DNA of 64,000 bases from an uncultured Candidatus Thioglobus sp. (GCA_964577715.1 CAZOAA010000001.1:13396-77395), one strand, 5' to 3'. Positions 1 to 26,270 are shown, counted from the stretch's first letter. Translations and numbers: made by a program. Notes: generated from the letters alone by a model not told the origin.

Positions 1-1
1 T

Positions 2-3102: not shown

Positions 3103-3187
3103 CTATTTAAATACTAGATGTTGATAATCAATGAGTCCTATAATAGAATACAATTGTCTTTTTAAATCATAAGTTGATGGATTTTTT

Positions 3188-3961
3188 ATGAAGGCGGTAA
3201 TATTGGCAGGTGGGCTGGGCACTCGATTAAGTGAGGAGACTGCACTTAAGCCCAAGCCAATGGTTGAAATTGGTAACATGCCAATTCTTTGGCATATTAT
3301 GAAAACTTACTCTTACCATGGTGTAAATGATTTTATTATTTGTTGTGGTTACAAAGGGTATGTCATAAAAGAATATTTTTCTAACTATTTTTTACATATG
3401 TCAGATGTTACATTTTGTATGAAGGATCAATCCATGAAAGTTCATCAAAATAACGCAGAACCTTGGACGGTTACCTTGGTTGATACAGGTGATAATACTT
3501 TAACTGGTGGACGTTTAAAACGTGTTTATGATTATATAAAAAATGATGACGCTTGTTGCTTTACCTATGGAGATGGTGTAAGTGATGTAGATATTTCCAG
3601 TCTAATTGAGTTCCATAAAAACCATGGTAAGTTAGCTACACTTACTGCTACACGTCCAACCGGAAGATTTGGCTCACTGAAAATATCTAAAGATAACACT
3701 GTTAACAGTTTTAAAGAAAAAATAAATAGTGACGAAAGTTGGATTAATGGCGGATATTTTGTCCTTTCCCCTAAAGTTATTGAATATATAGATGGTGATA
3801 ATATGGCATGGGAAGAACAGCCTTTAAGAAAGTTATCTAATGAAGGTAATTTAATGTCTTTTAAGCATGATGGATTTTGGCAGCCCATGGATACTTTATA
3901 TGAAAAAATAATGCTAAATAAATTATGGGATAGTGGAAAAGCGCCTTGGAAGGTTTGGTAG
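3188..3961 (+). CDS. rfbF: Glucose-1-phosphate cytidylyltransferase
   Basis: N-terminus MKAVILAGGLGTRLSEET..KPKPMVEIG..PILWHIMK, 257 aa, directly followed by a CDP-glucose 4,6-dehydratase homologue. Confidence 0.9.
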   Translation: MKAVILAGGLGTRLSEETALKPKPMVEIGNMPILWHIMKTYSYHGVNDFIICCGYKGYVIKEYFSNYFLHMSDVTFCMKDQSMKVHQNNAEPWTVTLVDTGDNTLTGGRLKRVYDYIKNDDACCFTYGDGVSDVDISSLIEFHKNHGKLATLTATRPTGRFGSLKISKDNTVNSFKEKINSDESWINGGYFVLSPKVIEYIDGDNMAWEEQPLRKLSNEGNLMSFKHDGFWQPMDTLYEKIMLNKLWDSGKAPWKVW

Positions 3962-5013
3962 TGGATTCAAAATTTTGGAAAGGGCGTAGAGTATTCTTAA
4001 CGGGCCATACTGGGTTTAAGGGGGGGTGGATTGCACTATGGCTTTCGCATATGGGGGCAAAAGTTTATGGGTATTCTTTGGCGCCATTAACAACGCCTAG
4101 CTTCTTTACTGAAACTAAATTGTCTGAACGAGTGGAGCGTTCGATAATGGGTGACATTAGGGATATAGAAAACTTAAAAAAATCTTTATTAGAGTCAAGG
4201 GCAAGTGTCGTCATTCATATGGCTGCACAGCCTCTCGTTCGAAAGTCTTATGCTGATCCAGTAGAAACATACTCTACCAATGTAATGGGTACAGTTAATA
4301 TTTTTGAGGCAATTCGACAAACAAATACAGTTAAAGCGGTTGTTAATATTACAACAGATAAGTGCTATGAAAATATGGAATGGGTGTGGCCCTATCGTGA
4401 AAATGATCGTTTAGGTGGCTATGACCCCTATTCATCTAGTAAGTCCTGCGCTGAAATAGTATCATCAGCTTATCGAAGTTCATTTCTTGCAAGTCAAAAT
4501 ATACATCTAGCGAGTGTTAGAGCGGGGAATGTTATTGGTGGAGGTGACTGGTCTGTTGATCGTTTAATACCAGATTTTTTAAGAGCTATTGAAGCAGGAG
4601 CCTCTCTTAAAATTAGATTGCCAAATGCTGTTAGGCCATGGCAACATGTGTTGGAGCCTTTATCTGGATACTTAATACTAGCTGAAAAGTTAGTTTTATG
4701 TGGTGAAAGATATGCTAGCGAGTGGAATTTTGGTCCAGATGAAAATGACACTAAGTCAGTATCTTGGATTGCCGACTATCTTTGTAGTAATCTTCCTAAC
4801 GCAAGTTGGAGGCATATTGAAACACCTCAGCCTCATGAATCTGGACTACTAAAATTAGATAGTAGCAAAGCAAAGTTGTATTTAGGGTGGTCACCAAAAT
4901 GGAATATAGAGGGCACATTAGATAAGACTATTGAGTGGCACAAGGCGTGGAAACAAGGTAAATGCATGACTGACTTTTCGATAGCTCAAATTGAAGATTA
5001 TCTTGCTATATGA
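3946..5013 (+). CDS. rfbG: CDP-glucose 4,6-dehydratase (a GTG at 3961 is an equally plausible start)
   Basis: FWKGRRVFLTGHTGFKGGW Rossmann N-terminus typical of RfbG/DdhB. Catalytic YSSSK (YxxxK). 355 aa. Confidence 0.88.
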   Translation: MEGLVVDSKFWKGRRVFLTGHTGFKGGWIALWLSHMGAKVYGYSLAPLTTPSFFTETKLSERVERSIMGDIRDIENLKKSLLESRASVVIHMAAQPLVRKSYADPVETYSTNVMGTVNIFEAIRQTNTVKAVVNITTDKCYENMEWVWPYRENDRLGGYDPYSSSKSCAEIVSSAYRSSFLASQNIHLASVRAGNVIGGGDWSVDRLIPDFLRAIEAGASLKIRLPNAVRPWQHVLEPLSGYLILAEKLVLCGERYASEWNFGPDENDTKSVSWIADYLCSNLPNASWRHIETPQPHESGLLKLDSSKAKLYLGWSPKWNIEGTLDKTIEWHKAWKQGKCMTDFSIAQIEDYLAI

Positions 5014-5570
5014 ATCATTTGACAATACATGATACTCATATTTCAGGGCTTCGTATAATTGAGCGTCATTCATTTGAGGATCGCCGAGGATATTTTGAAC
5101 GACTTTACTCCCATAAAGAGTTTGATAGTTTATTGCAGGATAGAATGATCAAGCAAATAAATCATACATTCACCCGTAAAAAAGGCACTGTTCGTGGGCT
5201 ACACTACCAACATCCTCCTTTCTCAGAGGTTAAAATTGTTTCCTGTTTGAAAGGTAGTGTTTGGGATGTTGCAGTTGATCTTAGAAAAAAATCACCAACT
5301 TTTTTGCAATATCATGCGATACGTATGTCAGAAGATGATTCTATTTCTTTCTGGATACCTGAGGGGTTTGCGCACGGTTTTCAAACATTAACCCATGATT
5401 GTAAAATGCTTTATCTACATACTAAAGAATACATGCCAAATTCAGAAGGTGCACTTAATGCAACTGACCCAAAAGTCAAAGTAGAGTGGCCATTAAAAAT
5501 TTCAGATATTTCTGATAAAGATAGAGGGCATCCATTTATCTCTAAGGGCTTTGAGGGAGTAGTTGTATGA
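5010..5570 (+). CDS. RmlC-fold NDP-4-keto-6-deoxyhexose 3,5-epimerase family protein
   Basis: Cupin-type RGLHYQ and WIPEGFAHGFQTL motifs, 186 aa, ATGA overlap with rfbG. Confidence 0.75.
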   Translation: MNHLTIHDTHISGLRIIERHSFEDRRGYFERLYSHKEFDSLLQDRMIKQINHTFTRKKGTVRGLHYQHPPFSEVKIVSCLKGSVWDVAVDLRKKSPTFLQYHAIRMSEDDSISFWIPEGFAHGFQTLTHDCKMLYLHTKEYMPNSEGALNATDPKVKVEWPLKISDISDKDRGHPFISKGFEGVVV

Positions 5571-6796
5571 ATTGCCGCCACTGTAAAAAAGAACTTGTAC
5601 ACACATTTTTAAACCTTGGGTTTTCACCGATATCCAATGCTTATTTGACAGAAGAAGATCTTTCAAAGCCAGAAAAATACTACCCTCTTAATATTAAAAT
5701 TTGCAATCACTGTTGGTTAGTACAAACTGAAGATTATCTCCATGAAGATCAGCTATTTGATTCAAATTATGCTTATTTTTCCAGTACTTCTAGTAGCTGG
5801 ATTGATCATTCTATGAAATATGTTAGAAAGATAACCAAAAAATTAGATTTAGATTCGGAAAGTTTGGTTATTGAAATTGCTTCTAATGATGGATATTTAC
5901 TTAAAAATTTTGTAGAAAATAAAATTCCATGTTTAGGAATTGAGCCTACAGACAGTACTGCAGATGCTGCAGAAGCTTTAGGAATTCCTGTGATTCGAGA
6001 ATTTTTTGTTGAAGATCTTGGTAAAAAGCTTGCTACTGAAGGTAGATTGGCAGATTTAATTATAGGGAATAATGTTTATGCGCATGTGCCTGAAATAAAT
6101 GACTTTACCGCAGGTCTTAAGGCAGTACTAAAAGAAAATGGAACTATTACTCTAGAATTTCCTCACCTATTGAATTTAATTGATCAGAATCAGTTTGATA
6201 CCATCTATCATGAGCATTTTTCATATCTGTCGTTATATACAGTTAGTAAAATATTTGCTATGCACGATCTAAGGATTTATGATGTAGAGCGGGTATTGAC
6301 ACATGGTGGAAGTTTGCGTATTTACGGCTGCCATTATAAGAGTCAATTAATAGAAAACTCAACTGTTCAAAAGATGCTGGAATTGGAAGAACAGTATGGG
6401 TTGAAACGATTAAATACTTATCAGAATTTTCAACAGCGAGTTGACAGGGTTAAAAATAGCTTGTTATATTTTTTAATTCAGCAGAAGCAGCTGGGAAAAA
6501 CCGTCTCAGCCTATGGTGCGGCGGCAAAAGGTAATACGCTACTAAATTATGCGGGTATTAAGCCTGATCTACTCCCTTTTGTTTGTGATGCAGCACCTAT
6601 TAAGCAGGGAAAATATATGCCTGGTAGTCATATACCAATTTTAAAACCTAATGCATTAGAAGTGCAAGCGCCTGATTATGTGTTGATTCTGCCATGGAAT
6701 ATTTCTGAAGAAGTAAAGCAGCAACTTATAAATGATCATTCATTTAAAGGAGATTTTGTAACAGTTATCCCCGAGTTGCAAATTATTAAACAATAG
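5567..6796 (+). CDS. NDP-hexose C-methyltransferase (TylC3-like class I SAM enzyme with N-terminal Zn-ribbon)
   Basis: N-terminal CRHC...CNHC zinc-ribbon pairs, SAM motif VIEIASNDGYLL, about 410 aa length and domain order typical of sugar C3-methyltransferases. Confidence 0.7.
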   Translation: MNCRHCKKELVHTFLNLGFSPISNAYLTEEDLSKPEKYYPLNIKICNHCWLVQTEDYLHEDQLFDSNYAYFSSTSSSWIDHSMKYVRKITKKLDLDSESLVIEIASNDGYLLKNFVENKIPCLGIEPTDSTADAAEALGIPVIREFFVEDLGKKLATEGRLADLIIGNNVYAHVPEINDFTAGLKAVLKENGTITLEFPHLLNLIDQNQFDTIYHEHFSYLSLYTVSKIFAMHDLRIYDVERVLTHGGSLRIYGCHYKSQLIENSTVQKMLELEEQYGLKRLNTYQNFQQRVDRVKNSLLYFLIQQKQLGKTVSAYGAAAKGNTLLNYAGIKPDLLPFVCDAAPIKQGKYMPGSHIPILKPNALEVQAPDYVLILPWNISEEVKQQLINDHSFKGDFVTVIPELQIIKQ

Positions 6797-7920
6797 TGAA
6801 ATCACGCATTCATTATACTAAACCCTCAATAACAGATTTAGAGGTTAAATATGCCGCAGATGCGGCAAAAAATGGTTGGGGTGAAGAATGCTATACTTAC
6901 ATAAGTAATTTTGAAAATCTTTTTAAACAGCACTTAGGTGTAGACTATGCGATAGCAACCTCCAGTTGTACTGGATCGCTTCACATGGGTATGGCTGCAC
7001 TTGGTATAGGGCCGAATGATGAAGTTATTATGGCTGATACCAATTGGATTGCCACAGCATCACCTATTGTTAACCTTGGTGCCAAGCCTGTATTTGTTGA
7101 CATTCTTCCTGATTCATGGTGTATTAATCCTGAGCTAGTAGAGGCAGCAATAACGCCAAATACTAAGGCAATTATTGCGGTACATTTATATGGAAATCTG
7201 TGTGATATGGATCGACTACTGGAAATTGGAAGTAAATATAATATTCCAGTTATTGAAGATGCGGCAGAGGCTATTGGCTCTATCTATCACGGAAAAAGAG
7301 CTGGCTCTATGGGGAAGTTTGGAGTTTTTTCATTTCATGGAACTAAAACTTTAACTACAGGGGAAGGGGGGATTTTTGTTACAAATGATGCAAATCTATA
7401 TGAACGAGTACTAACATTAAGTAATCATGGTCGTTCAAAAGAACAGGTAAAGCAATTTTGGCCTGACTTAGTAGGGTTTAAATATAAAATTTCAAATATT
7501 CAGGCTGCTATAGGTTGTGGCCAGTTAGAACGAATTGATGAGCTGGTTATGAAAAAAAGAGAAGTCTTTAAAATGTACCAGGAGAAATTAAATTCAATTC
7601 CTGGAATAAGCCTCAATTCAGAAGACAAAGGAACGGTAAATGGTGCGTGGATGCCAACTGTTGTTTTTTCTAAGGAATCGGGTGTAAAACGTGAGACTTT
7701 GCAAAGTGCCTTCAAAAGAGAAAATATTGATGCAAGAGTGTTTTTTTGGCCATTGTCTAGCTTACCAATGTTTCAAGCGAAAGAAAAGAATCTGAATGCA
7801 TATTCAATTCCTAAAAGATCTATCAATTTACCTAGTTATCACGATTTGAGCCTTGTAGAGCAACAAAGAGTTGTAGATGTCTTGTATTCTATTTCTTATG
7901 AGTTTGGCTTAAAAAAATGA
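6796..7920 (+). CDS. DegT/DnrJ/EryC1-family PLP-dependent sugar aminotransferase
   Basis: ATSSCTGSLHMGMAALGIGPNDEVI and FSFHGTKTLTTGEGG (PLP-lysine context). 374 aa. Confidence 0.85.
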   Translation: MKSRIHYTKPSITDLEVKYAADAAKNGWGEECYTYISNFENLFKQHLGVDYAIATSSCTGSLHMGMAALGIGPNDEVIMADTNWIATASPIVNLGAKPVFVDILPDSWCINPELVEAAITPNTKAIIAVHLYGNLCDMDRLLEIGSKYNIPVIEDAAEAIGSIYHGKRAGSMGKFGVFSFHGTKTLTTGEGGIFVTNDANLYERVLTLSNHGRSKEQVKQFWPDLVGFKYKISNIQAAIGCGQLERIDELVMKKREVFKMYQEKLNSIPGISLNSEDKGTVNGAWMPTVVFSKESGVKRETLQSAFKRENIDARVFFWPLSSLPMFQAKEKNLNAYSIPKRSINLPSYHDLSLVEQQRVVDVLYSISYEFGLKK

Positions 7921-8651
7921 GAATAATACTTATGGCAGATGGGATAGTTGGGTTTAAGATCGCCCAATACTTATCAAAACAATATCCAGGTGATTTATTT
8001 TTAATTGTTACTATTAAAAAAAATAATATATATAAGTTTTTTAAAAAAAATGGTTTTAATGTATTGGCTTTTGAATCAGAAGAGATTATTTTAAAAAAAC
8101 TTAACCATAAAGAGGTTGACCTTGGAATTCTAGCATGGTGGCCAAATATTATTAGATCACCTTTGATAGATTATCCAAAACAAGGCTTTTTGAACACCCA
8201 TCCAAGTTTCTTACCGTATAATCGCGGGAAGCACTTTAGTTTTTGGGCGATCGTTGAGCAGGCGCCATTTGGAGTATCTATACATTGTGTAAGCAATAAT
8301 ATTGATTCAGGTGATATAATAGCTCAAAAAGAAATAAACTACAACTGGTGTGATAATGGTGAATCTTTATATTATAAGTCCCAGGAAGAGATGTTAAATT
8401 TGTTTATTAAGACTTATCCATCTTTACACATGGGGTGTTTAAGTAAAAAAAAGCAAGATATGTCAAAGGGATCTTATCACCTGTCATGTGAAATTGAAGA
8501 GGCTAGCAAAATTAATCTTGATGATTTGTATACAGGGAGAGACATTCTAAACAAACTAAGGGCTCGAACATTTTCCGGGCATCCTAGTTGTTGGTTTGAG
8601 GATGAAAATATTGTTTATGATGTATCTATAGAAATTAATAAAAAAAAATAA
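7917..8651 (+). CDS. Sugar N-formyltransferase (Fmt/PurN-like formyl-transferase domain)
   Basis: NTHPSFLPYNRG (HxSLLPxxRG-type motif) and downstream IDSGDII. Sits directly after the aminotransferase. Confidence 0.72.
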   Translation: MRIILMADGIVGFKIAQYLSKQYPGDLFLIVTIKKNNIYKFFKKNGFNVLAFESEEIILKKLNHKEVDLGILAWWPNIIRSPLIDYPKQGFLNTHPSFLPYNRGKHFSFWAIVEQAPFGVSIHCVSNNIDSGDIIAQKEINYNWCDNGESLYYKSQEEMLNLFIKTYPSLHMGCLSKKKQDMSKGSYHLSCEIEEASKINLDDLYTGRDILNKLRARTFSGHPSCWFEDENIVYDVSIEINKKK

Positions 8652-8672
8652 TTTAAAAAAAAGTGAAATATT

Positions 8673-9638
8673 ATGGAAGCAAATAAAAGCTATTCCGACA
8701 GAAGTTCCGGATAGGATGTTGAGTCTGGAGTACGGAGTAATTCAGAAATATATGAATTTGACTTTTCAAATGAATCGTCTACCTCAGAAGAAATTAGTGT
8801 CAGTTGGCATTTAGATTCTTACTCAGGAATCCTTGAACATAATGAATTAAAAAGTCTTTCTGACAAAGATAAAGAGTTCGTAAAAGGTATTCAGTTATTA
8901 GAATTTGTCACTAAACAAACAATTTTTGAGATTGATTGTGTTAATTATGTAACTTCTAGACTAACGCATGGGAAATATAAATTTAATTTTTCTGAGTCTT
9001 TAAAGCTTGACGCTTTAAAAGTTTATACCGATGAAGGATATCATGCTTATTACACACAGAAAGTGGCCAATCAGATAAGGCATTATTACCATATTGGTGA
9101 GGACGATATTAGCCCATTTGTTAAAGACTATTATTCAAAGATCGAATTAATTATTTCCAAGTTTGATAAAAAATACAAAGATCTTTGTATGCTGGCATTT
9201 GTTATTGCTGGCGAGAATCAAATTGTCTCAGATCTTTCGAATGATATGCGAAAGATAGTCCATGAGCCTATTCGAAAGATGTTTAGAGATCATATGAAAG
9301 ATGAAGTATTTCATGCTAGATTCTTTAGTATAGTTTTTGAAAAAATTTGGCCTCAACTAAATGCTAAAGAGAAAGAAATTATGGGGTTGTGCTTTTGTGA
9401 CTCTATGGAAATATTAGGATCACCTCGTACTGATATCTATTATTTTTCTTTGGCCAAGCTGGGTTTTAACGAACAACAAATATCGCAATATATCAACGAT
9501 ATATATAATACAATTGAGTGGAAAACAACTAGAATTAGCGCTAGAATGGCTCCAACAATAAGCTTATTAAAATCAAATAATGTTTTTGATATTGAATCAG
9601 TTAAAAATGCGTTTCAGAGAAAAAATTATATAATATAA
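8673..9638 (+). pseudogene. Ferritin-like di-iron oxygenase (AurF-like fold) interrupted by an in-frame TAG at codon 14
   Basis: ATG at 8673 and the 9063..9638 ORF are in the same frame. The only stop between them is TAG at 8712..8714. The 116 codons between the TAG and the GTG at 9063 contain no ATG/GTG/TTG. Two ExxH motifs (DEGYHAYY at about 9030, DEVFHARFF) plus upstream and mid-protein Glu residues fit an E...ExxH...E...ExxH four-helix-bundle di-iron site. Confidence 0.5.
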
Positions 9639-9644
9639 GTAGCA

Positions 9645-9730
9645 ATGTCAAAATATTTAAAAGCAAATAGTGATTATTGGAGTCAGGCGGTTTATGATAA
9701 TCCAAACCCTGAGTCATATGTATTTAGAAT
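9645..9730 (+). pseudogene. 5' fragment (28 codons + 2 nt) of an IS-disrupted class I SAM-methyltransferase
   Basis: ATG 9645: MSKYLKANSDYWSQAVYDNPNPESYVFR, then the IS left end. The frame continues perfectly at 10475. Confidence 0.75.
9723..9730. repeat. Target-site duplication, left copy (TTTAGAAT)
   Basis: The identical 8-mer directly abuts the other IS end at 10467..10474. Confidence 0.85.
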
Positions 9731-9752
9731 GGGTCAAGATAACTTTAGAGGT
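9731..9752. repeat. IS terminal inverted repeat at the left window-side end (contains the transposase stop codon)
   Basis: See the mobile_element entry. 21/22 match to the reverse complement of 10445..10466. Confidence 0.85.
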
Positions 9753-10420
9753 TCATCTCTAAATATTTTAAGCAAATTTTGATACATATCTTCACCTCTA
9801 TTATTAAACCTAAATTCACATTCTTTTAGGTGTAAATTAAACATCTTTTTATCCATACCTTTAAACTTTACTAACCTTGTTTTGGCATAACCCCAGAATG
9901 ATTCAATTCCATTAATATGAGAGTTTCCTCTCACAAACTCATTCTTCCCATGGTGCACTCTAAAGTGCTTCTTATAGCCAAAATCTACTAAACCATTATA
10001 CCCACGCCAACCATCGGAATGAATAACACTACCAACATCAACTTTGCCCTTGATAACCTTCTGCAGCACAGCTGCAGAGCAATCAGGGACAATTTCAGTA
10101 TAAACCTTACCTTGTCTTTTTAACAAACCAAACACTATGGTTTTACCTCTGGCGCCACGGCCGCGTTTTCCGCGGACGCGCCGTGCACCAAAATAACTTT
10201 CATCAATTTCAATCTCACCTTTGAGTGGTGACTGATCTTGACAATACAAAAATATTCTAGACCTAATAGCTGTTAAATATTTGTTAATACTTGGTCTAGA
10301 TATTTTTGTTAAATGAGAGATTTGAGTTGCACTCAAATCCTCAGAAAACAAGTAAATTATTTCTCTAAATTTCTTCTCAGAAATGTGAGAACGAATTACA
10401 TACTTGTTTTTCATTGGCAT
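9734..10420 (-). CDS. IS1595-family (ISXO2-like) DDE transposase
   Basis: 228 aa. N-terminal HTH-like LSATQISHLTKISRPSINKYL, GRG-rich RVRGKRGRGARGK linker, HSDGWRGY and NGIESFWGYAKTRL motifs typical of IS1595 DDE transposases. Confidence 0.85.
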   Translation of the reverse strand: MPMKNKYVIRSHISEKKFREIIYLFSEDLSATQISHLTKISRPSINKYLTAIRSRIFLYCQDQSPLKGEIEIDESYFGARRVRGKRGRGARGKTIVFGLLKRQGKVYTEIVPDCSAAVLQKVIKGKVDVGSVIHSDGWRGYNGLVDFGYKKHFRVHHGKNEFVRGNSHINGIESFWGYAKTRLVKFKGMDKKMFNLHLKECEFRFNNRGEDMYQNLLKIFRDEPLKLS

Positions 10421-10444
10421 AGCAACATATTATCATGTTTTTAT

Positions 10445-10466
10445 ACCTCTAAAGTTATCTAGACCC
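10445..10466. repeat. IS terminal inverted repeat at the right window-side end
   Basis: See the mobile_element entry. Confidence 0.85.
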
Positions 10467-10474
10467 TTTAGAAT
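10467..10474. repeat. Target-site duplication, right copy (TTTAGAAT)
   Basis: Identical to 9723..9730. Confidence 0.85.
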
Positions 10475-11108
10475 ATATGGCCGTATTTTAAATTATCAGT
10501 TTGGCCTGAATGGAAAGAGAAATGATAATGTTCTTGATTTTGGTTGCGGTTCTGGGGGTAATTCTACATTTTTTGACTCTAAAGGTTTTAATGTTTTTGG
10601 TGTAGATCAAAGTGCTGGTGACATTGAAAGGTGTCACAAACGCTTACCAAATAAAGTCAATCAATTCAAAACTATAAGTCCAGAATGCTCTCAAGATGAT
10701 ATCTGGTTTCCTAGAGTAAAATTTAAAATTATTACTTCGTTCCAGGTTTTGTACTATCTCAATGATACAGATCTACAGAGAAGGCTTACATCGTTATACA
10801 ATATGCTTGAACCTGGCGGTATTTTTATTGCAACTATGATGCATACTAGCTCTTGGTATTATGGCATGAGTCATCCATCTGAAGATGGAATGAGGTTTGT
10901 CAAATTTTATCGTGAACAAGATGTTGGTAGGGGTAATCTTTCTATGAATGATCACTATATAAATTTTACTAATGATGAAAAAGATTTAATTGAAAAATTT
11001 AAAATCTTTCTCCCTCTGCATACCAAAGGTTATTATGATGGAGTGTATAGAGATGATCAAGGCTCTGAGAAGCATCTAGTTTTTATTGGTCAAAAACCCA
11101 AGATTTGA
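10475..11108 (+). pseudogene. 3' part of the IS-disrupted class I SAM-methyltransferase
   Basis: The track ORF 10404..11108 borrows its first 21 codons from IS sequence. From FRIYGRILNYQ onward it continues the 9645 fragment. SAM motif I VLDFGCGSGGN and post-I LEPGGIFIA are present. Joining 9645..9730 to 10475..11108 gives 720 nt, i.e. 239 aa plus stop. Confidence 0.8.
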
Positions 11109-11884
11109 AAAAAAATCAGAACCCCATAAGATTGATTGCTAGAATCGATGTTAGGAATGGCTATCATATTAAAACTATCAATGGTGAAGGGGTTAAGAAA
11201 CTACGAACAATTGAGGAGTCATTGGAGCGTTTCACAAAAGGTGTTAATGAGCATGATGAAATTCTTTTAATTGATGCTGTATCCTCTCTTTATGGTTTTG
11301 ATAATTGGTTAATTCGGCAGGATAATAAACATATGTATTGTCCAATACCTTTTTCTATTGGTGGTGGAGTGGCATCTGTTGATATGGCCATTTCCACTTT
11401 AGAAAAAGGTGCAGATAAAATTGTAGTTAATACTGCTGCCATTGCAAAGCCAAAATTATTATCAGATATTTCGAATATTTGTGGCAGGCAAGCAGTTGTG
11501 CTTCAGATTGATACAAGAAAAATTAATAACATTTATAGGTGTTTTATCAATGGATCGCGAGAGCTTTCCAATCTTACTGTGGAAAATTGGTTGCAGCAGG
11601 CCCAGGATAATGGGGTTGGTGAAATCCATGTAACTTGCATTAATTCTGAGGGTGTAGACGCTACTTTCCCTGATGATCTTGCAGATTTGTGCAGATCTAA
11701 TACACAACTCCCTTTGATTGTATCTGGAGGTATTAGAAGCGCCTTGGATATGAAAAATCTTAGATTAAAATTTGAAATTAATGCTTTCAGTTTTTCTTCG
11801 ATTACTAACCATTTGGGCCTAACCGTTGAACAAATCAGGCGCGACCTTTTGACGCTTGGAGAGAGTGTAAGGTGTCCACATTAG
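11105..11884 (+). CDS. wbuZ: HisF-like cyclase subunit of a glycosyl amidation system (WbuZ-type)
   Basis: HisF-type (beta/alpha)8 phosphate-binding motifs FSIGGGV and VSGGIRS. Followed by a HisH-like protein and an N-acetyl-sugar amidotransferase. Confidence 0.75.
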   Translation: MKKNQNPIRLIARIDVRNGYHIKTINGEGVKKLRTIEESLERFTKGVNEHDEILLIDAVSSLYGFDNWLIRQDNKHMYCPIPFSIGGGVASVDMAISTLEKGADKIVVNTAAIAKPKLLSDISNICGRQAVVLQIDTRKINNIYRCFINGSRELSNLTVENWLQQAQDNGVGEIHVTCINSEGVDATFPDDLADLCRSNTQLPLIVSGGIRSALDMKNLRLKFEINAFSFSSITNHLGLTVEQIRRDLLTLGESVRCPH

Positions 11885-12513
11885 TACATATTGTAAAACT
11901 TAAAAGTTCAAACTACAGATCTGTACAACAGGCGGTTATCGCAGGGGGAGGCGGAGTTACGCCAAAAATAATTGAAATAATTGAATTAAAAGATAGTTCA
12001 ATTTTAATTATTCCTGGAATTGGGAATATGGCTTCATTGGTAAGTGAAGTAAGTGAAAATCTTGATATAGAGCGGATTAGAAATTATATTATTTCTCATA
12101 ATATTAAGGTGATTGGGATTTGCTTAGGATTTCAATGGTTGTGCTCCAAGTCTTTTGAAAGCGAGCATTCTAAGTGTTTAAATTTAATTAATTGTACAGT
12201 TGAGTCGATCTTTACTCCAACAATGCCTTCTTTAGGATGGAAGAGGCTTAAAGAGTCTATTTTCAATAAAAATACTAGCTCATTATCGAATTATATTAAA
12301 GGTAAAGATTTCTATTTAACTCACTCTTTTGGGGTAGGCGATTTAGAGCTGAAGGGTGCAGAAGTTTATGTGTATTCTTCTGATGAAGCTAATAATTTGG
12401 TAGCTGCCGTTATAAGTAAAAATATTATTGGTTATCAGTTTCATCCTGAAAAGAGTGGCCAACACGGTGTAAAATTACTTCAGAAACCAATCTTATATTT
12501 GGAGAGTAATTGA
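11872..12513 (+). CDS. wbuY: HisH-like class I glutamine amidotransferase subunit (WbuY-type)
   Basis: Nucleophile elbow GICLGFQWL and C-terminal FHPEKS (His-Glu of the triad). Confidence 0.75.
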   Translation: MSTLVHIVKLKSSNYRSVQQAVIAGGGGVTPKIIEIIELKDSSILIIPGIGNMASLVSEVSENLDIERIRNYIISHNIKVIGICLGFQWLCSKSFESEHSKCLNLINCTVESIFTPTMPSLGWKRLKESIFNKNTSSLSNYIKGKDFYLTHSFGVGDLELKGAEVYVYSSDEANNLVAAVISKNIIGYQFHPEKSGQHGVKLLQKPILYLESN

Positions 12514-13742
12514 TAGTGAATAATTTACCTAAGGCGCCACCTTCTAAAACCGTTATCTTCTGTAAAACTTGTGTAATCTCAAATCAAAAACCTGTTTCAT
12601 CAATTGAATCTTCTCACTCGCAAGGAGATATAAAGAAAACGGTAAACTTTAAAGATGGAATTTGTGATGCTTGCCACTGGGCTAAAATTAAAGATCAAGA
12701 TATTGATTGGCAAGCTAGAGAGAGTGAATTAAAGAAACTACTTGACAAGCATAGAAAAAATAATGGTGAATATGATGTAATTGTCCCAGCTAGTGGGGGT
12801 AAGGATTCAATGTATGTGGCTCATATGTTGAAAGAAAAGTATAATATGAACCCTTTAACTGTAACATGGAAGCCCCATGTTTTTACACCTATTGGATTTG
12901 AAAACTTTATGAGTTTAATAGATAGTGGCCAAAGCAATCTAATGTTTTCTCCCCCTGGAGATATACAAAGGAGATTAACCTCTCTAGCATTTAAGAATCT
13001 AGGCCATCCATTTCAACCTTTTATTGTTGGACAAAGAGTTGTTGGTCCTAAGGCAGCACTAATGAACAATGTTAAGCTGGTCTTTTATGGTGAGAATGTT
13101 GCTGAATATGGTAATCAAATTAAAGATAATTACAGCCCCATTATGGATCCAGAGCTTTACACTTGTTTTAACCATGATAAAGATACTTTAGATTTATTTA
13201 AACTATCTGGTATTACTTTGAAAGACCTTATTGATAAACATGATTTCTCAATCAGTGATTTTGAGTCATATAAATCGCCATCATTGCTTGAAGTTGAGTC
13301 TGCAGGGATTCAAGTTCATTATATGTCTTATTATAAAAAATGGAATCCACAAGAAAACTATTATTATTCGGTTCAATATACAGGATTTAAGGCTAGTGAT
13401 AGGCGCAAAGATGGTAGTTACTCCAAGTACGCAGGAATTGATGATATTATGGAAGACTTGCATTTTTATATGCAAGTAATCAAGTTTGGTATGGGTAGAT
13501 GCACATGGGATGCTGCACAAGAAGTTAGGTCGGGTATGCTTGAAAGGCATGAAGAAGTGGCTTTGGTATCTAAGTATGATCAAGAGCAGCCAACTCAGTA
13601 TTTTCAAGAAATTCTTGAATATTTAAATATTTCTGAAAGTGAGTTTTGGTCAGTGATTGATTTTTTTAGACCTGAACATCTTTGGAGAGAGTTAGATGAT
13701 GGTAGTTTTTCTCTTAAACATCCTATAAGGTATGATACCTGA
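12510..13742 (+). CDS. wbuX: N-acetyl sugar amidotransferase (WbuX/PseA/LfnA-type PP-loop ATPase)
   Basis: N-terminal Cys pairs (CKTC..., CDAC), PP-loop VPASGGKDS, about 410 aa. Forms the canonical partnership with the HisH/HisF-like pair. Confidence 0.78.
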   Translation: MIVNNLPKAPPSKTVIFCKTCVISNQKPVSSIESSHSQGDIKKTVNFKDGICDACHWAKIKDQDIDWQARESELKKLLDKHRKNNGEYDVIVPASGGKDSMYVAHMLKEKYNMNPLTVTWKPHVFTPIGFENFMSLIDSGQSNLMFSPPGDIQRRLTSLAFKNLGHPFQPFIVGQRVVGPKAALMNNVKLVFYGENVAEYGNQIKDNYSPIMDPELYTCFNHDKDTLDLFKLSGITLKDLIDKHDFSISDFESYKSPSLLEVESAGIQVHYMSYYKKWNPQENYYYSVQYTGFKASDRRKDGSYSKYAGIDDIMEDLHFYMQVIKFGMGRCTWDAAQEVRSGMLERHEEVALVSKYDQEQPTQYFQEILEYLNISESEFWSVIDFFRPEHLWRELDDGSFSLKHPIRYDT

Positions 13743-13790
13743 CCCTTGTATTGGAAAATTCTATAATAGATTACATTTTTAATATTTAAT

Positions 13791-14579
13791 ATGACTACAT
13801 TTAAAAAACATCAACAATTCAAAGAGAAGTGCTTTTCAGAAATAAAAAAACAAGGAGAAGATGATGATTTATTGAATTCAACATCTATTTGGTTTGAAAA
13901 AGCAAACAGGTTGAATTATTCATATCACTTTGAATCTTTAGGACGCCCAATAATTCAATATCCACAAGATATGATTGCAATGCAAGAGTTAATATGGAAG
14001 GTTAAGCCCGATCTGATTATTGAAACAGGAATTGCGCATGGAGGGTCTTTAATTATGAGCGCATCCATGTTGGCAACATTGGATATGTGTGACGCGATTG
14101 AATCTGGAGAGACTTTTAACCCTATAGAATCAAAGCGAAAAGTTTTGGGTGTTGATATAGATATTCGTGCACATAATCGAAAAGCAATTGAGATGCACCC
14201 AATGTCGTCCCGTATTCAAATGATTCAAGGTTCTAGTATCGAATCAGAGACCATCGAACAAGTGTACCAGGTTGCAAAAAAATATAAACGCATTCTTGTG
14301 TGCCTTGACTCAAACCACACTCATGATCACGTACTAGCCGAACTCAAGGCATACGCTTTGTTGACAAGTATAGATAGTTACTGTGTAGTCTTTGATACAA
14401 TTATTGAGGATATGCCTGACAATATGTTTTTAAATAGGAAATGGTCTCAAGGTAACAATCCAAAGACTGCAGTATGGGAATATTTAAAAACTTGTTCAGA
14501 GTTTAAGATTGATAAAAGCATGCAAAATAAGTTGCTAATCACTGTGGCGCCAGATGGATATTTAAAGCGTGTAAAGTAA
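13791..14579 (+). CDS. CmcI (cephalosporin hydroxylase) family SAM-dependent O-methyltransferase
   Basis: LGRPIIQYPQDMIAMQELIWKVKPDLIIETGIAHGGS ... VLGVDIDIR matches the CmcI-family signature. Confidence 0.72.
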   Translation: MTTFKKHQQFKEKCFSEIKKQGEDDDLLNSTSIWFEKANRLNYSYHFESLGRPIIQYPQDMIAMQELIWKVKPDLIIETGIAHGGSLIMSASMLATLDMCDAIESGETFNPIESKRKVLGVDIDIRAHNRKAIEMHPMSSRIQMIQGSSIESETIEQVYQVAKKYKRILVCLDSNHTHDHVLAELKAYALLTSIDSYCVVFDTIIEDMPDNMFLNRKWSQGNNPKTAVWEYLKTCSEFKIDKSMQNKLLITVAPDGYLKRVK

Positions 14580-14586
14580 TATTAAA

Positions 14587-15591
14587 ATGAAGAATTTTAC
14601 AATATTGATACCTGTATACCATCAATATGAAAAGCTTTATAGGTTATTGAGTTTTTTAAAGGGTTTTAAAGAGAGTTTTGAGGTTATTATCCTTGATTCT
14701 AGTGTTAGAAAGGCTGAGGTTAGTTTTGATATTGATTTTAAATACTTGTCTTTTGATAGTGATACACCATTAATAGAAAAAATATACCAAGGCTTGGATT
14801 TCGTTAAAACAGAATATTCGGTTTTGTGCGCAGATGATGATTTTATCATGCCCTCTGCTGTGATGGAGTGTGTTGACTTTTTAAGTTTGAACAAAGACTA
14901 TGTTGTAGCTCATGGCCAGTATATTTCCTTTTTAACAACTACAATTAATGAAAAGGAAAAATTTTTCTGGGGGAAGAGGTATGACACTCCCTCTAACGAA
15001 GAAAACAACCCAATTTTACGAATTGAAAAATATTATAGCATCCCCATGTCTCCAAATTTTTACGGTGTATATCGTACTGTAGACCATAAAACTATAATGA
15101 AAATAACTAGAAAATCTGGTTATGATATAAGGTTTGAAGAGAGGCTGCAGGCATCTGTAGCTTTGCTTATTGGGAAAGAGAAAAGATTAGATTCTTTTTA
15201 CTATTCAAGAGAAAAGGTTAAAGAAAAAAAAATAATAGATGACATGGATAGTTATGTCAAATATAAAACTTTTGATGAAAAATATCAAAATTATAAAGCT
15301 GTTTTAGTAGATTTTATCAAGTCTAATAATTATTCTATGGCCAATGATTTTAACAATCAAATCGATGATATTTTTTTCGATTTTGTGGAAAAATTAACTG
15401 CTAGAAATAAAAAATCTCTTTCTTCCTTGGTTAAGGGGGTGATTATAAATACCACCCCATTATATAAATTTATTAATTTTGTGTTAAGAAGAAAGGACTT
15501 GTACGAAAGAACTATGTTGTCTGATGGTGAAATGTGTGACAAGTACAGAGATGTGCTTAAAGTGAAAACGCATTCCTTGGAAAAAAAGTAA
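14587..15591 (+). CDS. GT2-like glycosyltransferase domain protein
   Basis: FTILIPVYH ... VIILDSS ... CADDDF (DxD-like) in the N-terminal 100 aa. Confidence 0.5.
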   Translation: MKNFTILIPVYHQYEKLYRLLSFLKGFKESFEVIILDSSVRKAEVSFDIDFKYLSFDSDTPLIEKIYQGLDFVKTEYSVLCADDDFIMPSAVMECVDFLSLNKDYVVAHGQYISFLTTTINEKEKFFWGKRYDTPSNEENNPILRIEKYYSIPMSPNFYGVYRTVDHKTIMKITRKSGYDIRFEERLQASVALLIGKEKRLDSFYYSREKVKEKKIIDDMDSYVKYKTFDEKYQNYKAVLVDFIKSNNYSMANDFNNQIDDIFFDFVEKLTARNKKSLSSLVKGVIINTTPLYKFINFVLRRKDLYERTMLSDGEMCDKYRDVLKVKTHSLEKK

Positions 15592-15603
15592 ATTTTTGAC
15601 ATT

Positions 15604-17244
15604 ATGGAAAAATGTAATATCTTTATTTTTAGAGGCAAATGCACATTTTTTTTGAAAATATATAGCCGTATATCTAAAAATAAGATCTATTCATGGAATA
15701 AATGCAGATCTATAAAAAAAATACCTTATAGTCACTCCTGTTCTTTCTTCTCTAATAAGGAAAAGGCAAGGCGTATTTTTAATAATTATTTTGAAAATAA
15801 TATGCCTAATAAGGAGTGCCTATCTACTCAGTATATTAAAAAAATGCTGATTAGTGATTTTGATGAATATTATTCATTTACAGCGCAAGTACTGCAAATG
15901 AATAAGAAAATATATAAGATAATTGGCGCTGGAATATTTAAAAATATTTATGATAATAGAAAGATAAAAACAAGCTATTTTTTAATATTTGGATATACTG
16001 TTGCCATAGTTAAGATGTCCCTTGTCTTTTTGAGACTTTACCTCTTGTGTTATATGCAAAAAAGCAGTATTAAGGTTGGAGATGTTGTGTATTTAAGAAG
16101 AAAAGCTCTTCCAGATGCTTTTTTAAATTCTCATAAATTTTTTATAAAAAACAAAGTTTCATTTTCAGGTGTAATTTTTGATTTCAGCAACTCTATATCT
16201 AAATACGATCTTTATTTTTTAAGTAGTTTTGTAAATTCTTTTGCGGCATTGAAAAAAGCAGCAAGAATAGTTGTTAGATCTATTTTAAAAGATACAACTA
16301 CTTTTTATGCTTTATCAGTCTCTACCAGACAGTATTATAATTTTTTAAGGGAAACACTTTATGTTAATACTTTGTTAGAATTAAAGCCAAAGGTTATATA
16401 TGGATCTTTGACAGACCGACCTTACGGTGTTCTTTTGTATAAACATAAAAAACCTTTTCAAAAAATATGCATGCATAGTGATGGGTTTTATTTTGATCCG
16501 TTACCGGGCCCAGAATATGTGTATGCGGATGTATTTTATGGAATGAATGAGTTGGACTGTAATAATATAAACCGCCATGGCGGCGGTATTTTAAAAATAA
16601 TAGATGCAGGGTTTTATCGAAAAACTATTAGGGCTAAGTCTAAAGGGGTGCATAAAGATTTAAAAAGGTTGATTTTTGAATTTGAGCATATTGTGGTTAT
16701 TACCTTGGCAACGGTTAGAGTTAACAAGTATTTTCCAATTGATTTGGCATACTTTAAAGATTTTATTCTTGAAATAATAGAGCAAACAAGTGTTTTTGAT
16801 AAATCCCTCTTTATTCTAAAAGGAAAAAAGGGTGAGATAGAGTTGATTCCAGATGAATATGCTAAATTTTTATCACAAAAGGAAAATGTATACATAGTCC
16901 CATGTGATGTGCCATATTTGCTCGAGTACAATCATTATGAGGATCTTATTGATTATGCAGATTTAGTTGTATCTATGCACTATGCTTCTATGACAGTGTG
17001 GCAGTCAATAGCAAGTGAAATACCTACTATAGGATATAACTATTGTAATGATATAACTGAATTTTCAAACTCTCCATATTTTATTGTTAATAAGGGTGGG
17101 TTACTACAAGCAATTAAATATTGGAAGGGTTTGGATGAATGCACAAAAAAACATTTTTTCCAAAATATTAAAGGAAAGGCAAACTTACATCGCAAAGATG
17201 CGTTACACGATATGTATTCAAGCCTCTCTTCTATGGTTGGCTGA
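15604..17244 (+). CDS. Hypothetical protein; orphan TagF/KpsC-like transferase candidate
   Basis: 546 aa with no strong motif. C-terminal YADLVVSMHYASMTVWQSIASEIPTIGY resembles the terminal GT-B motif shared with the ORFs at 2, 27238 and 43086. Confidence 0.3.
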   Translation: MEKCNIFIFRGKCTFFLKIYSRISKNKIYSWNKCRSIKKIPYSHSCSFFSNKEKARRIFNNYFENNMPNKECLSTQYIKKMLISDFDEYYSFTAQVLQMNKKIYKIIGAGIFKNIYDNRKIKTSYFLIFGYTVAIVKMSLVFLRLYLLCYMQKSSIKVGDVVYLRRKALPDAFLNSHKFFIKNKVSFSGVIFDFSNSISKYDLYFLSSFVNSFAALKKAARIVVRSILKDTTTFYALSVSTRQYYNFLRETLYVNTLLELKPKVIYGSLTDRPYGVLLYKHKKPFQKICMHSDGFYFDPLPGPEYVYADVFYGMNELDCNNINRHGGGILKIIDAGFYRKTIRAKSKGVHKDLKRLIFEFEHIVVITLATVRVNKYFPIDLAYFKDFILEIIEQTSVFDKSLFILKGKKGEIELIPDEYAKFLSQKENVYIVPCDVPYLLEYNHYEDLIDYADLVVSMHYASMTVWQSIASEIPTIGYNYCNDITEFSNSPYFIVNKGGLLQAIKYWKGLDECTKKHFFQNIKGKANLHRKDALHDMYSSLSSMVG

Positions 17245-18146
17245 TGCGAGTGAATATTTTTTATAGAAAAATGGTAAATGTATTGTATTCTTTCAAAGAC
17301 TCGTTTTTTCTTTATAAAATTATATTGAAGTCTTTTTTTGGAGGGGGGGGGAGTAAGATAATTGTTACATCCATTCCAAAGTCTGGCACGCATTTAATTG
17401 AAAAGTTATTGGTTGATTTTTTTAGTTTTATTAAATTTGGTGATGGTATTAATAGAATGCATTATCCAAATAATGAGGGAAGGTTTAATAAAGTAAGAAA
17501 GAAAATCTCCCTCCTTCCTCGATCATGTTTTATTTCAAGTCATTTATTTTATGATGCTGAAATTGGCGAATTGATGGCCAAAAAAGATATAAAAATAATT
17601 TTAATGATTCGAGATCCGAGAGATATTGTTGCTTCAGCTGCAAGATACATCACTGAAAGTTCACATCCTTATTCTCCTCATTTTACAAATAAGTCGAAAG
17701 AAGAAGTTATAGAGATGATTATAACTGGAATTACAGGTCCAATATTAATGCACAGACCTAAAGATCCAAGTATGAGAGCTGAATATACTACGAACCATAA
17801 CATGTTTAGTGGTATTTTAGAAGCATACCGAAGGTTTTTACTGTGGAGTGAAGTTGGTGATGCTTTAGTAGTAAAATTTGAAGATCTTGTCGGGACTTCT
17901 GGAGGTGGTGACATAGGAAGGCAGCGAAAAATAATTTACAAAATAGCTAAATTGTGCAAGAGTCATGTGTCTGATAGTGATATGAGTAATATTATTGACA
18001 ATCTGTTCGGAGGAACGTCAACCTTTAGAAGGGGTAGAATCAACACCTGGAGTGATGAATTTACAGAAAAAAATAAAAAAACTTTTAAAATCAATACTGG
18101 AAGTTTACTTGTTGATTTGGGTTATGAAAAAGACAATAGATGGTGA
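17244..18146 (+). CDS. PAPS-dependent sulfotransferase
   Basis: 5'-PSB loop SIPKSGTHL and 3'-PB motif MIRDPRDIVAS. TGATG junction with the upstream ORF. Confidence 0.8.
   Translation: MRVNIFYRKMVNVLYSFKDSFFLYKIILKSFFGGGGSKIIVTSIPKSGTHLIEKLLVDFFSFIKFGDGINRMHYPNNEGRFNKVRKKISLLPRSCFISSHLFYDAEIGELMAKKDIKIILMIRDPRDIVASAARYITESSHPYSPHFTNKSKEEVIEMIITGITGPILMHRPKDPSMRAEYTTNHNMFSGILEAYRRFLLWSEVGDALVVKFEDLVGTSGGGDIGRQRKIIYKIAKLCKSHVSDSDMSNIIDNLFGGTSTFRRGRINTWSDEFTEKNKKTFKINTGSLLVDLGYEKDNRW
17343..17351 (+). repeat. Poly-G tract (G9) inside the sulfotransferase CDS
   Basis: gga ggg ggg ggg agt encodes GGGGS, lying between the start codon and the PAPS-binding loop. It is the longest G/C homopolymer I found in the window. 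Confidence 0.9.
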
Positions 18147-18156
18147 TCGGTAAAGA

Positions 18157-18659
18157 ATGAACATTAACAATATAGATTTATTTGTATTTGATTTTGACGG
18201 TGTGTTGACCAATAACCTTGTTTATACAAATGAGTTGGGAGAGGAATTTGTTGTTTGTAGTCGTAGTGATGGCTTGGGATTTGATTTGTTAAAGGCAATA
18301 AAAAAAGAGTCTTGTATATTGTCAACCGAAAAAAACCATGCTGTTTCAGCGAGAGCAAAAAACTTAATATCCCTGTAATTCAAGGGGCTGGGGATAAGGT
18401 TGATGTATTGAAAAATATTGCAAAAGAGCGAAATATTAGCCTTGACGGTATTTTTTATGTTGGCAATGATGTTAATGATTATTATGCTATGGATATTTGC
18501 GGTTATACAGCTTGCCCATCTGATAGTCATAGTTTAATTAAAAACAATGTGGACTACATACTTAAAGCTAAAGGTGGGCATGGAATTGTTCGTGAAATAT
18601 TAGAAGATGTTTTTCAATTAAATATACTTAAATTACTTAAAAAACTAAAAGATGAATAA
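18157..18659 (+). pseudogene. KdsC-family HAD phosphatase paralogue, frameshifted at an A6 run (18357..18362)
   Basis: ORF 18157..18378 (DFDGVLT ... STEKNHAVSARAKN) and ORF 18312..18659 (KKLNIPVIQG ... GNDVNDY ...) are the N- and C-terminal halves of one protein. Together they are colinear with the intact paralogue at 19499..20017. Adding one A to the A6 run restores ...ARAKKLNIPVIQG... Confidence 0.8.
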
Positions 18660-19491: not shown

Positions 19492-19498
19492 ATAATAA

Positions 19499-20017: not shown

Positions 20018-20019
20018 TA

Positions 20020-22284: not shown

Positions 22285-22286
22285 AC

Positions 22287-23885: not shown

Positions 23886-23957
23886 TATTGATAAGCAAAG
23901 AGAATTAGGGGTAAAGAATATGAAAAAAGTTAAGCCGATGCAGGCAAAAACGATGCA

Positions 23958-24200: not shown

Positions 24201-24204
24201 TTTT

Positions 24205-26249: not shown

Positions 26250-26270
26250 AATACAATTAAAAGATTAAAT

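What the first reader, a model, noticed from the sequence alone, without database searches (positions are those of the whole stretch)
9645..11108. Intact IS1595-family element inserted at codon 29 of a SAM-methyltransferase gene
Seen in sequence:
- The 22-bp terminal inverted repeats at 9731..9752 and 10445..10466 match at 21/22 positions.
- An identical 8-bp direct repeat, TTTAGAAT, sits at 9723..9730 and 10467..10474.
- Deleting 9731..10474 (the IS plus one repeat copy) joins the orphan ATG at 9645 in frame to the ORF ending at 11108. This gives a 239-aa protein with an intact VLDFGCGSGGN SAM motif.
- This is the only minus-strand gene in an otherwise unidirectional 64-kb array.

Established: IS1595-family elements are about 0.7-1 kb, carry a single DDE transposase and make 8-bp duplications.

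Inference: perfect target repeats and an unbroken transposase ORF point to a recent event. It inactivates one methylation step and may be polar on the WbuZ/Y/X genes immediately downstream.
Basis: partly seen in the sequence, partly recalled or inferred. Interest (0 to 1): 0.6.

Follow-up and report, generated by a model that had tools for sequence, protein, structure and literature searches.

The report
Insertion sequence splitting a sugar-pathway methyltransferase gene
A small, intact mobile element (an IS1016-type member of the IS1595 family) has recently jumped into a methyltransferase gene in the surface-sugar gene cluster of a marine sulfur-oxidising (SUP05-type) bacterium; this is real but ordinary gene loss.

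Summary

- **The element.** 9731..10466 is a 736-bp element with 22-bp terminal inverted repeats (21/22). It is flanked by a perfect 8-bp duplication, TTTAGAAT. It carries one 228-aa minus-strand transposase, which scores 186 bits on the NCBIfam IS1595 model (cut-off 75).
- **The subgroup.** The conserved D73/D136/E173/K180 residues, the absent zinc finger and the AT-rich 8-bp duplication place it in the IS1016 subgroup.
- **The host gene.** Joining the flanks gives a 239-aa class I SAM methyltransferase. It aligns end to end with 236-239-aa homologues, up to 84% identical.
- **The empty site.** Four syntenic metagenome contigs carry the uninterrupted site with one copy of the target, TTTAGGAT.
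- **Timing.** The split gene has the lowest dN/dS (0.07) of nine cluster genes, so the hit is recent on that scale.
- **Copy number.** The genome holds this one full copy plus a 277-bp internally deleted derivative. Copies 94-95% identical sit in several contexts in marine metagenomes.

Two additions. The adjacent AurF-like oxygenase gene carries a TGG-to-TAG stop at codon 14. The methyltransferase sits beside the amidotransferase triad in all four contexts examined.

The finding is correct but routine, so interest is low.

The parts
9731..10466 (-). Complete 736-bp IS (IS1595 family, IS1016 subgroup), oriented opposite to the surrounding operon
   Evidence: Boundaries are set by the IRs and the duplication. 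They are confirmed by the syntenic empty site, where both flanks abut with an 8-bp overlap. Relatives are 733-755 bp.
9731..9752 (.). Inverted repeat at the transposase-stop end (IRR); the last codons and the stop of the transposase lie inside it
   Evidence: GGGTCAAGATAACTTTAGAGGT. The transposase ORF ends at 9734.
10445..10466 (.). Inverted repeat at the transposase-start end (IRL)
   Evidence: Reverse complement is GGGTCTAGATAACTTTAGAGGT, 21/22 to the other arm. The same A/T difference at position 6 is seen in related copies L024, L027 and L111-L115.
9734..10420 (-). Transposase gene, 228 aa, intact
   Evidence: Pfam PF12762 at 1.3e-29, with no zinc-finger domain. NCBIfam NF033547 at 186 bits, profile positions 1-215 of 215. 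D73, D136, E173 and K180 are conserved in 49-51 of 51 homologues.
9723..9730 (.). Left copy of the 8-bp target-site duplication, TTTAGAAT
   Evidence: Relatives have a single TTTAGGAT at this position.
10467..10474 (.). Right copy of the 8-bp target-site duplication, TTTAGAAT
9645..9730 (+). 5' fragment of the methyltransferase gene (codons 1-28 plus two bases of codon 29); as it stands it reads into the IS and stops at 9782 (45 aa)
   Evidence: The N-terminus MSKYLKANSDYW matches homologues, MSDYLKANSDYW.
10475..11108 (+). 3' fragment of the methyltransferase gene (third base of codon 29 to the stop), including the SAM-binding motif
   Evidence: Pfam Methyltransf_23/25/11. Full-length alignment after joining.
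10404..11108 (+). Chimeric ORF (234 aa) starting at a TTG inside the IS and running into the methyltransferase 3' fragment; probably not functional
   Evidence: It keeps only F27 and R28 of the 13 N-terminal positions that are at least 90% conserved in 42 homologues.
8673..9638 (+). Adjacent AurF-like di-iron oxygenase gene, with TAG at codon 14 (8712..8714) where homologues have Trp (TGG)
   Evidence: tblastn gives one 315-aa in-frame hit at 77% identity. Sequence. Homologues have TGG/W at this position.
11105..13742 (+). Downstream HisF-like / HisH-like / WbuX-like amidotransferase triad, whose expression could be affected
   Evidence: NCBIfam: WbuX 317 bits against cut-off 203; HisH 121 against 105; WbuZ 136 against 300, which is below cut-off. 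The same triad sits beside the methyltransferase in every context examined.

Best explanation
A single, complete, apparently transposition-competent insertion sequence of the IS1016 subgroup of the IS1595 family is inserted at codon 29 of a 239-aa class I SAM-dependent methyltransferase gene. The insertion followed the usual DDE mechanism: staggered cleavage of an AT-rich target, then repair that duplicated 8 bp. The gene lies in a large, one-directional surface-polysaccharide gene cluster of a small-genome (1.6 Mb) member of the SUP05/Thioglobaceae group.

The insertion separates the conserved N-terminal 28 residues from the SAM-binding core, so it most likely abolishes the enzyme (inferred). 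On the scale of divergence from the nearest known relatives the event is recent (shown). Together with an amber mutation in the adjacent AurF-like oxygenase gene, it removes a two-gene decoration step that is genetically linked to an acetamidino-forming amidotransferase triad. The linkage is shown; the chemistry is inferred. Whether it also lowers expression of the downstream triad is unknown.
For: Shown:
- The IRs (21/22) and the perfect 8-bp duplication sit at the stated coordinates.
- The transposase is full length, passes the curated IS1595 cut-off and keeps the D-D-E-K residues.
- The motif DESYFG...HINGIESFW..AK...KECEFRFN matches the IS1016 signature quoted for ISApl4 in PMC12561309. 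The absent zinc finger is the IS1016 hallmark (PMC8101967; Pfam result).
- Of 62 related elements (733-773 bp, nearly all 733-755) with GGGTC-type termini, 32 have perfect 8-bp AT-rich duplications and several have 7-bp ones.
- The joined ORF aligns at 99-100% coverage with homologues up to 84% identical.
- Four syntenic contigs (formyltransferase, AurF-like, methyltransferase, HisF-like, HisH-like, WbuX-like) carry the uninterrupted gene. Both window flanks align to them with exactly 8 shared bases.
- dN/dS of the split gene against L104 is 0.071, the lowest of nine cluster genes, which range from 0.07 to 0.21.
- The genome holds only one full copy plus a 277-bp deleted derivative with its own 8-bp duplication, TAAATTAT.
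- Copies 94-95% identical at the nucleotide level, all exactly 736 bp, occur with at least four different left flanks in marine metagenomes.
Against: - No sibling-strain or same-species empty-site allele could be found. The nearest empty site is only about 78% identical in DNA.
- No reads could be examined, so heterogeneity in the source population and assembly support are untested.
- Transposase activity is inferred from intactness only.
- Loss of methyltransferase function is inferred from conservation, not measured. A chimeric ORF from a TTG inside the IS (10404..11108) retains the catalytic core.
Confidence: 0.93

Rival explanations
1. The insertion is old and fixed, not recent. The methyltransferase has long been a pseudogene and the IS is a resident relic.
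For: There is only one full copy in the genome, and no identical copy anywhere in the collections searched; the nearest is 97% aa and about 94.5% nt. The neighbouring gene is also broken. No empty-site allele was found in the same species.
Against: The duplication is perfect and the transposase keeps every position that is at least 95% conserved. The IR mismatch is shared with relatives, so it is not decay. The joined ORF has no stop or frameshift, keeps every invariant column of the 13-sequence alignment, and has the lowest dN/dS of the cluster.
Confidence: 0.08
2. The insertion does not inactivate the enzyme. Read-through transcription plus the in-frame TTG at 10404 yields an N-terminally replaced but working methyltransferase.
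For: An open chimeric frame of 234 aa exists. It retains F27 onward, including the whole Rossmann core. No convincing terminator was found on the plus strand within the IS.
Against: Thirteen of the first 28 residues are at least 90% conserved across 42 homologues (N8 and R28 are invariant), and eleven of them would be lost. In a confident model of the closest intact homologue (pLDDT 93), residues 3-13 and 24-37 form two helices, and the break lies inside the second. No recognisable promoter or ribosome-binding signal above chance precedes the TTG.
Confidence: 0.06
3. This is an assembly artefact: a repeat placed wrongly into the contig.
For: The assembly is a draft of 80 contigs. Ends of a second, related IS do break contigs C26, C36, C39 and C53.
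Against: A misjoin would not create an exact 8-bp duplication of the host gene's own sequence at both IR tips. It also would not leave two gene halves that rejoin in frame and match the syntenic empty site base for base in register.
Confidence: 0.02

Closest known systems
IS1016-subgroup elements of the IS1595 family (for example IS1016 of Neisseria/Haemophilus; ISApl4 of Actinobacillus pleuropneumoniae, PMC12561309)
   Same: About 0.7 kb (ISApl4 is 712 bp; this element is 736 bp). One transposase of about 220-230 aa without the N-terminal zinc finger. Catalytic signature DESYFG ... HINGIE.FW...K ... KECEFRFN. Short terminal IRs. AT-rich 7-9-bp (here 8-bp) duplications.
   Different: IRs are 22 bp with a GGGTC tip, against 14 bp in ISApl4. 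Named relatives reachable here are at most 50% identical in protein: the Francisella plasmid copy is 50% and ISAcra1-type is 48%. The closest relatives are unnamed copies in SUP05/Thioglobus, Ruthturnera, Sulfurovum and other marine or sediment MAGs. ISfinder itself could not be queried.
IS inactivation of O-antigen, capsule or glycan-modification genes (a general, well-documented way in which surface polysaccharides vary)
   Same: A single IS disrupts one tailoring gene inside a long co-directional polysaccharide operon, with possible polar effects.
   Different: The host is an uncultured-type marine chemoautotroph lineage, and the affected chemistry (the AurF-like + methyltransferase + amidotransferase module) is uncharacterised.
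Small-molecule class I SAM methyltransferases (phosphoethanolamine N-methyltransferases, CcbJ, DesVI, glycine-sarcosine N-methyltransferase)
   Same: Rossmann-type fold and a GxGxG SAM motif. The best sequence and fold matches are E about 1e-11, TM 0.55-0.68.
   Different: Only 12-19% identity, so no substrate can be assigned. The family is defined here by its genomic link to the WbuX-type amidotransferase triad.

Membership tests
IS1595 family | Transposase carries the DDE_Tnp_IS1595 (ISXO2-like) catalytic domain | tested here: met
   Pfam PF12762 at 1.3e-29, profile positions 1-153 of 153. NCBIfam NF033547 at 186 bits against a cut-off of 75.
IS1595 family | Single transposase ORF bounded by short terminal inverted repeats | tested here: met
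   One 228-aa ORF. The 22-bp IRs match at 21/22.
IS1595 family | 8-bp target-site duplication | tested here: met
   TTTAGAAT on both sides. The deleted derivative on C3 has TAAATTAT on both sides. 32 of 62 related elements have perfect 8-bp duplications.
IS1016 subgroup | No N-terminal Zn_Tnp_IS1595 zinc finger (PMC8101967) | tested here: met
   The Pfam scan at E up to 0.01 returns only PF12762. The definition was read.
IS1016 subgroup | D-D-E(-K) triad with the DESYFG / HINGIE.FW / KECEFRFN signature (PMC12561309) | tested here: met
   D73 lies in EIDESYFG and D136 in HSDGW. E173 and K180 lie in HINGIESFWGYAK, and KECEFRFN is at 199-206. All are conserved in 49-51 of 51 homologues. The signature was read.
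IS1016 subgroup | Small size (about 0.7 kb) and AT-rich 7-9-bp direct repeats | tested here: met
   736 bp with an 8-bp AT-rich duplication. Relatives are nearly all 733-755 bp with 7-8-bp duplications. The 7-9-bp range is quoted in PMC12561309.
IS1016 subgroup | Demonstrated mobility of this copy | not testable with these tools
   Indirect evidence only. The ORF is intact, near-identical copies have different flanks in metagenomes, and a deleted derivative lies elsewhere in the genome.
Class I SAM-dependent methyltransferase | Rossmann-type methyltransferase domain with a glycine-rich SAM loop | tested here: met
   Pfam Methyltransf_23/25/11/12/31 are above cut-off. The motif VLDFGCGSGGN is present. 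The AlphaFold model of homologue P0002 has pLDDT 93 and matches methyltransferase folds.
WbuX/WbuY/WbuZ acetamidino triad (downstream genes) | Each of the three proteins reaches its curated family score | tested here: inconclusive
   WbuX scores 317 bits against cut-off 203, which is met. The HisH model scores 121 against 105, which is met. WbuZ scores 136 against 299.7, which is not met; AglZ/HisF2 scores 105 against 310.

The most novel reading that the evidence does not exclude
The two independent knock-outs side by side are the IS in the methyltransferase and the amber codon in the AurF-like oxygenase. They may mark selected switching-off of one surface-glycan decoration in a SUP05 population, for example to escape phage or grazers. 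The conserved module (AurF-like + methyltransferase + amidotransferase triad), found from SUP05-like bacteria to Synechococcus and in a flagellar locus, may make an undescribed N-oxygenated and methylated acetamidino sugar.
Probability: 0.12. Interest if true: 0.5.

Novelty: new member of a known kind. Interest (0 to 1): 0.17.

Why it matters
In itself it matters little. IS insertions into glycan-tailoring genes are a textbook route of surface variation and gene loss. Three modest points of value remain.

1. It documents a clean, datable example of an active-looking IS1016-type element in the SUP05/Thioglobaceae lineage. That IS clade is shared with Sulfurovum, Ruthturnera and many sediment and marine MAGs, which suggests horizontal spread in these habitats.
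2. It gives correct annotation: two ORF fragments and a chimeric ORF should be called one disrupted gene.
3. It points to a conserved, uncharacterised oxygenase + methyltransferase + amidotransferase module. The product of that module would be worth identifying.

Tried and rejected
- **Read evidence.** Mapping reads for empty-site alleles and RNA-seq for polarity were therefore impossible.
- **Conspecific alleles.** Exact-word scans with the left and right flanks found nothing in the metagenome and genome collections. A DNA search with the joined site in 40 relatives found nothing. A protein search in 121 family genomes found the gene only in this genome. A back-translated pattern scan of genome contigs for the methyltransferase also found nothing.
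- **Identical transposase.** The exact-protein look-up found no identical copy elsewhere.
- **Promoter and terminator scans.** These gave chance-level counts: 11 promoter-like sites against 8.4 ± 3.4 expected, and 1 terminator-like site against 0.9 expected. Nothing can be concluded about polarity or outward promoters.
- **Duplications around the 94-95% copies.** The metagenome contigs show no matching repeats. L113 and L115 share a left flank but differ on the right, so those short contigs are probably assembly chimeras across IS copies. They were used only to show several contexts.
- **Plain Zn-finger IS1595-group element.** Rejected, because no zinc-finger domain is present and E rather than N is the third catalytic residue.
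- **The repeat finder and the duplication.** The tool did not list the 8-bp duplication among its direct-repeat families. It was verified by direct reading instead.

Full report
**The observation**

The sequence was read directly and checked by script.
- 9731..9752 reads GGGTCAAGATAACTTTAGAGGT. The reverse complement of 10445..10466 reads GGGTCTAGATAACTTTAGAGGT. They match at 21 of 22 positions.
- Complementarity stops abruptly after position 22.
- TTTAGAAT lies at 9723..9730 and again at 10467..10474, touching the outer tip of each repeat.
- The repeat finder returns this pair as the longest inverted repeat of the region.
- The 21-nt IR consensus occurs exactly twice in the 64-kb window and never in 100 shuffles.
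- The element is 736 bp and 34.9% G+C, against 33.1% for the window and 36.8% for the genome.
- Among ORFs of at least 120 aa, the transposase is the only free-standing minus-strand ORF in the window. The other two minus-strand ORFs lie inside longer plus-strand ORFs.

**The element**

The single ORF (9734..10420, minus strand, 228 aa) was scanned against two family libraries.
- It matches Pfam DDE_Tnp_IS1595 over the whole profile (1.3e-29) and no other domain.
- It matches NCBIfam NF033547 'IS1595 family transposase' at 186 bits against a cut-off of 75, over profile positions 1-215 of 215.

In an alignment with 50 non-identical homologues, D73, D136, E173 and K180 are conserved in 49-51 of 51 sequences. 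The blocks EIDESYFG, HINGIESFWGYAK and KECEFRFN are also kept. This is the signature quoted for the IS1016 subgroup element ISApl4 (PMC12561309). The IS1016 subgroup is the one group of the family without the N-terminal zinc finger (PMC8101967). I therefore place the element in the IS1016 subgroup. The transposase stop codon lies inside the IR next to it, and 46 bp separate the start codon from the other tip.

**Relatives of the element**

A pattern scan of one genome per species found 482 relatives.
- The best hits are in Candidatus Ruthturnera (78% aa), uncultured SUP05 cluster bacteria (81-82%) and Sulfurovum (75%).
- Lower hits lie in many sediment and marine MAGs of several phyla.
- This, with the genome's size (1.6 Mb, 80 contigs), identifies the host as a member of the SUP05/Thioglobaceae group.
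- It is not a pathogen of animals or plants as far as these data show.

I located both ends in 62 of the fetched relatives.
- Lengths run from 732 to 773 bp, nearly all between 733 and 755 bp, and 736 bp is the commonest.
- The tips are GGGTC or GGTTC.
- 32 have perfect AT-rich 8-bp duplications, and several others have 7-bp ones.
- The A/T difference at IR position 6 is the same in the closest relatives (L024, L027, L111-L115). The one 'mismatch' is therefore a lineage feature and not decay.

The large protein collection holds transposases 95-97% identical. Their contigs carry 736-bp elements 94.4-94.8% identical in DNA, without gaps. These have at least four different left flanks, and the flanks resemble this genome at 73-84%. 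Those short contigs look chimeric across IS copies, so I draw nothing from their missing duplications.

**Copies in this genome**

- There is one full copy, the one in the finding.
- There is one 277-bp internally deleted derivative on another contig (C3:81452..81728). It has both ends and its own 8-bp duplication, TAAATTAT.
- Four contig ends (C26, C36, C39, C53) carry the tips of a second, related IS. Its interior is not in the assembly.

**The interrupted gene**

Joining 9645..9730 to 10475..11108 gives 720 nt and a 239-aa protein without stops.
- It finds 48 other proteins at E up to 1e-5. The top ones are 236-239 aa, 68-84% identical and cover 99-100% of the query.
- In the alignment the junction region (ESYVFR|IYGRIL) is colinear and conserved.
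- The closest homologue, P0002, is encoded on four metagenome-assembly contigs. Their gene order matches the window: aminotransferase, N-formyltransferase, AurF-like, methyltransferase, HisF-like, HisH-like, WbuX-like, CmcI-type methyltransferase, glycosyltransferase.
- blastn aligns those contigs to the window up to 9730 and again from 10467. Exactly 8 query bases are shared between the two alignments.
- At that point they read ...TATGTATTTAGGATATACGGG..., which is one uninterrupted copy of the target.

This is the empty site, although it comes from a relative only about 78% identical in DNA.

**Timing**

- Nei-Gojobori dN/dS between the window and L104/L106 is 0.071 for the joined methyltransferase. 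That is the lowest of nine cluster genes, which range from 0.07 to 0.21.
- Synonymous sites are near saturation (dS about 0.8-1.5), so this only says the gene was under purifying selection for nearly all of that divergence.
- With the perfect duplication and the intact transposase, 'recent' is justified on that scale and no finer.

**Consequence for the enzyme**

- Thirteen of the first 28 positions are at least 90% conserved in 42 homologues; N8 and R28 are invariant.
- A confident AlphaFold model of P0002 (pLDDT 93.3) puts residues 3-13 and 24-37 in two helices ahead of the Rossmann core. The break lies in the second helix.
- The upstream fragment now ends after 45 codons.
- The only frame that still contains the SAM motif is a chimeric ORF from a TTG inside the IS (10404..11108). 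It would keep only F27 and R28 of the conserved N-terminal positions.
- I infer loss of function and give the chimera a small chance of activity.
- The fold and sequence relatives are small-molecule methyltransferases, many of them N-methyltransferases, at 12-19% identity. No substrate can be named.

**Context and likely role**

The methyltransferase lies next to the HisF-like / HisH-like / WbuX-like triad in every context examined:
- the SUP05-like contigs;
- Synechococcus sp. MU1617;
- a Logan contig;
- a Tara contig, where it follows flagellar genes and has no called AurF-like gene upstream.

An AurF-like gene immediately precedes it in the first three of these. In 121 species-representative genomes of the host's family the gene occurs only in this genome, so the module is accessory. 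NCBIfam supports WbuX above cut-off, but the WbuZ model only below cut-off. A role in methylating the product of the amidotransferase, or an oxygenated form of it, is an inference from linkage only.

**A second lesion next door**

The AurF-like gene (8673..9638) is colinear with 314-322-aa homologues over 315 residues in one frame. It has TAG at codon 14 (8712..8714), where four close homologues have TGG and more distant ones also have W. Its dN/dS is 0.10. I checked it independently. Two adjacent, functionally linked genes are thus both freshly broken.

**Polarity**

This was not testable.
- Consensus scans give chance-level numbers and no convincing plus-strand terminator inside the IS.
- The transposase is transcribed away from the downstream genes, so it cannot drive them.
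- A long untranslated stretch after 9782 would allow Rho-dependent termination. This rests on established knowledge and is inferred, not shown.

**Verdict**

The refinements are the subgroup, the second lesion and the module linkage. This is a new, unnamed member of a well-known kind of element doing a well-known thing, so interest is low.

Noticed in passing
window 8673..9638 (TAG at 8712..8714): The AurF-like di-iron oxygenase gene directly upstream of the split methyltransferase has an in-frame amber codon at position 14, where homologues have Trp (TGG). Otherwise it is colinear at 77% identity with dN/dS 0.10. The next in-frame start is at 9063.
   Followed up: partly
own genome, contig C3:81452..81728 (outside the window; L002/L003): A 277-bp internally deleted, MITE-like derivative of the same IS. 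It retains both ends (84-92% identity) and is flanked by its own 8-bp duplication, TAAATTAT.
   Followed up: partly
own genome, ends of contigs C26, C36, C39, C53: Four contig ends stop about 50 bp inside the termini of a second, related IS1016-type element (GGGTCAAGACAACTTAAG...). Its interior is missing from the assembly, so there are probably at least two collapsed copies.
   Followed up: partly
L104-L110 and window 8673..13742: The methyltransferase is linked to a HisF-like / HisH-like / WbuX-like amidotransferase triad in four independent contexts, including Synechococcus sp. MU1617 and a flagellar locus. An AurF-like gene precedes it in three of the four. This is a conserved but uncharacterised sugar-decoration module.
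   Followed up: partly
window 1..64000: About 60 consecutive ORFs of at least 120 aa all lie on the plus strand, many overlapping by a few bases. This is an unusually long one-directional polysaccharide-type gene array for a 1.6-Mb genome.
   Followed up: no
L024-L103: The same IS clade (54-82% aa; 733-755 bp for nearly all copies; GGGTC tips) is spread across Gammaproteobacteria, Campylobacterota, Desulfobacterota, Nitrospirota, Acidobacteriota, Bdellovibrionota and Bacteroidota-like MAGs. It is often present in many copies per genome, which suggests frequent horizontal transfer.
   Followed up: partly
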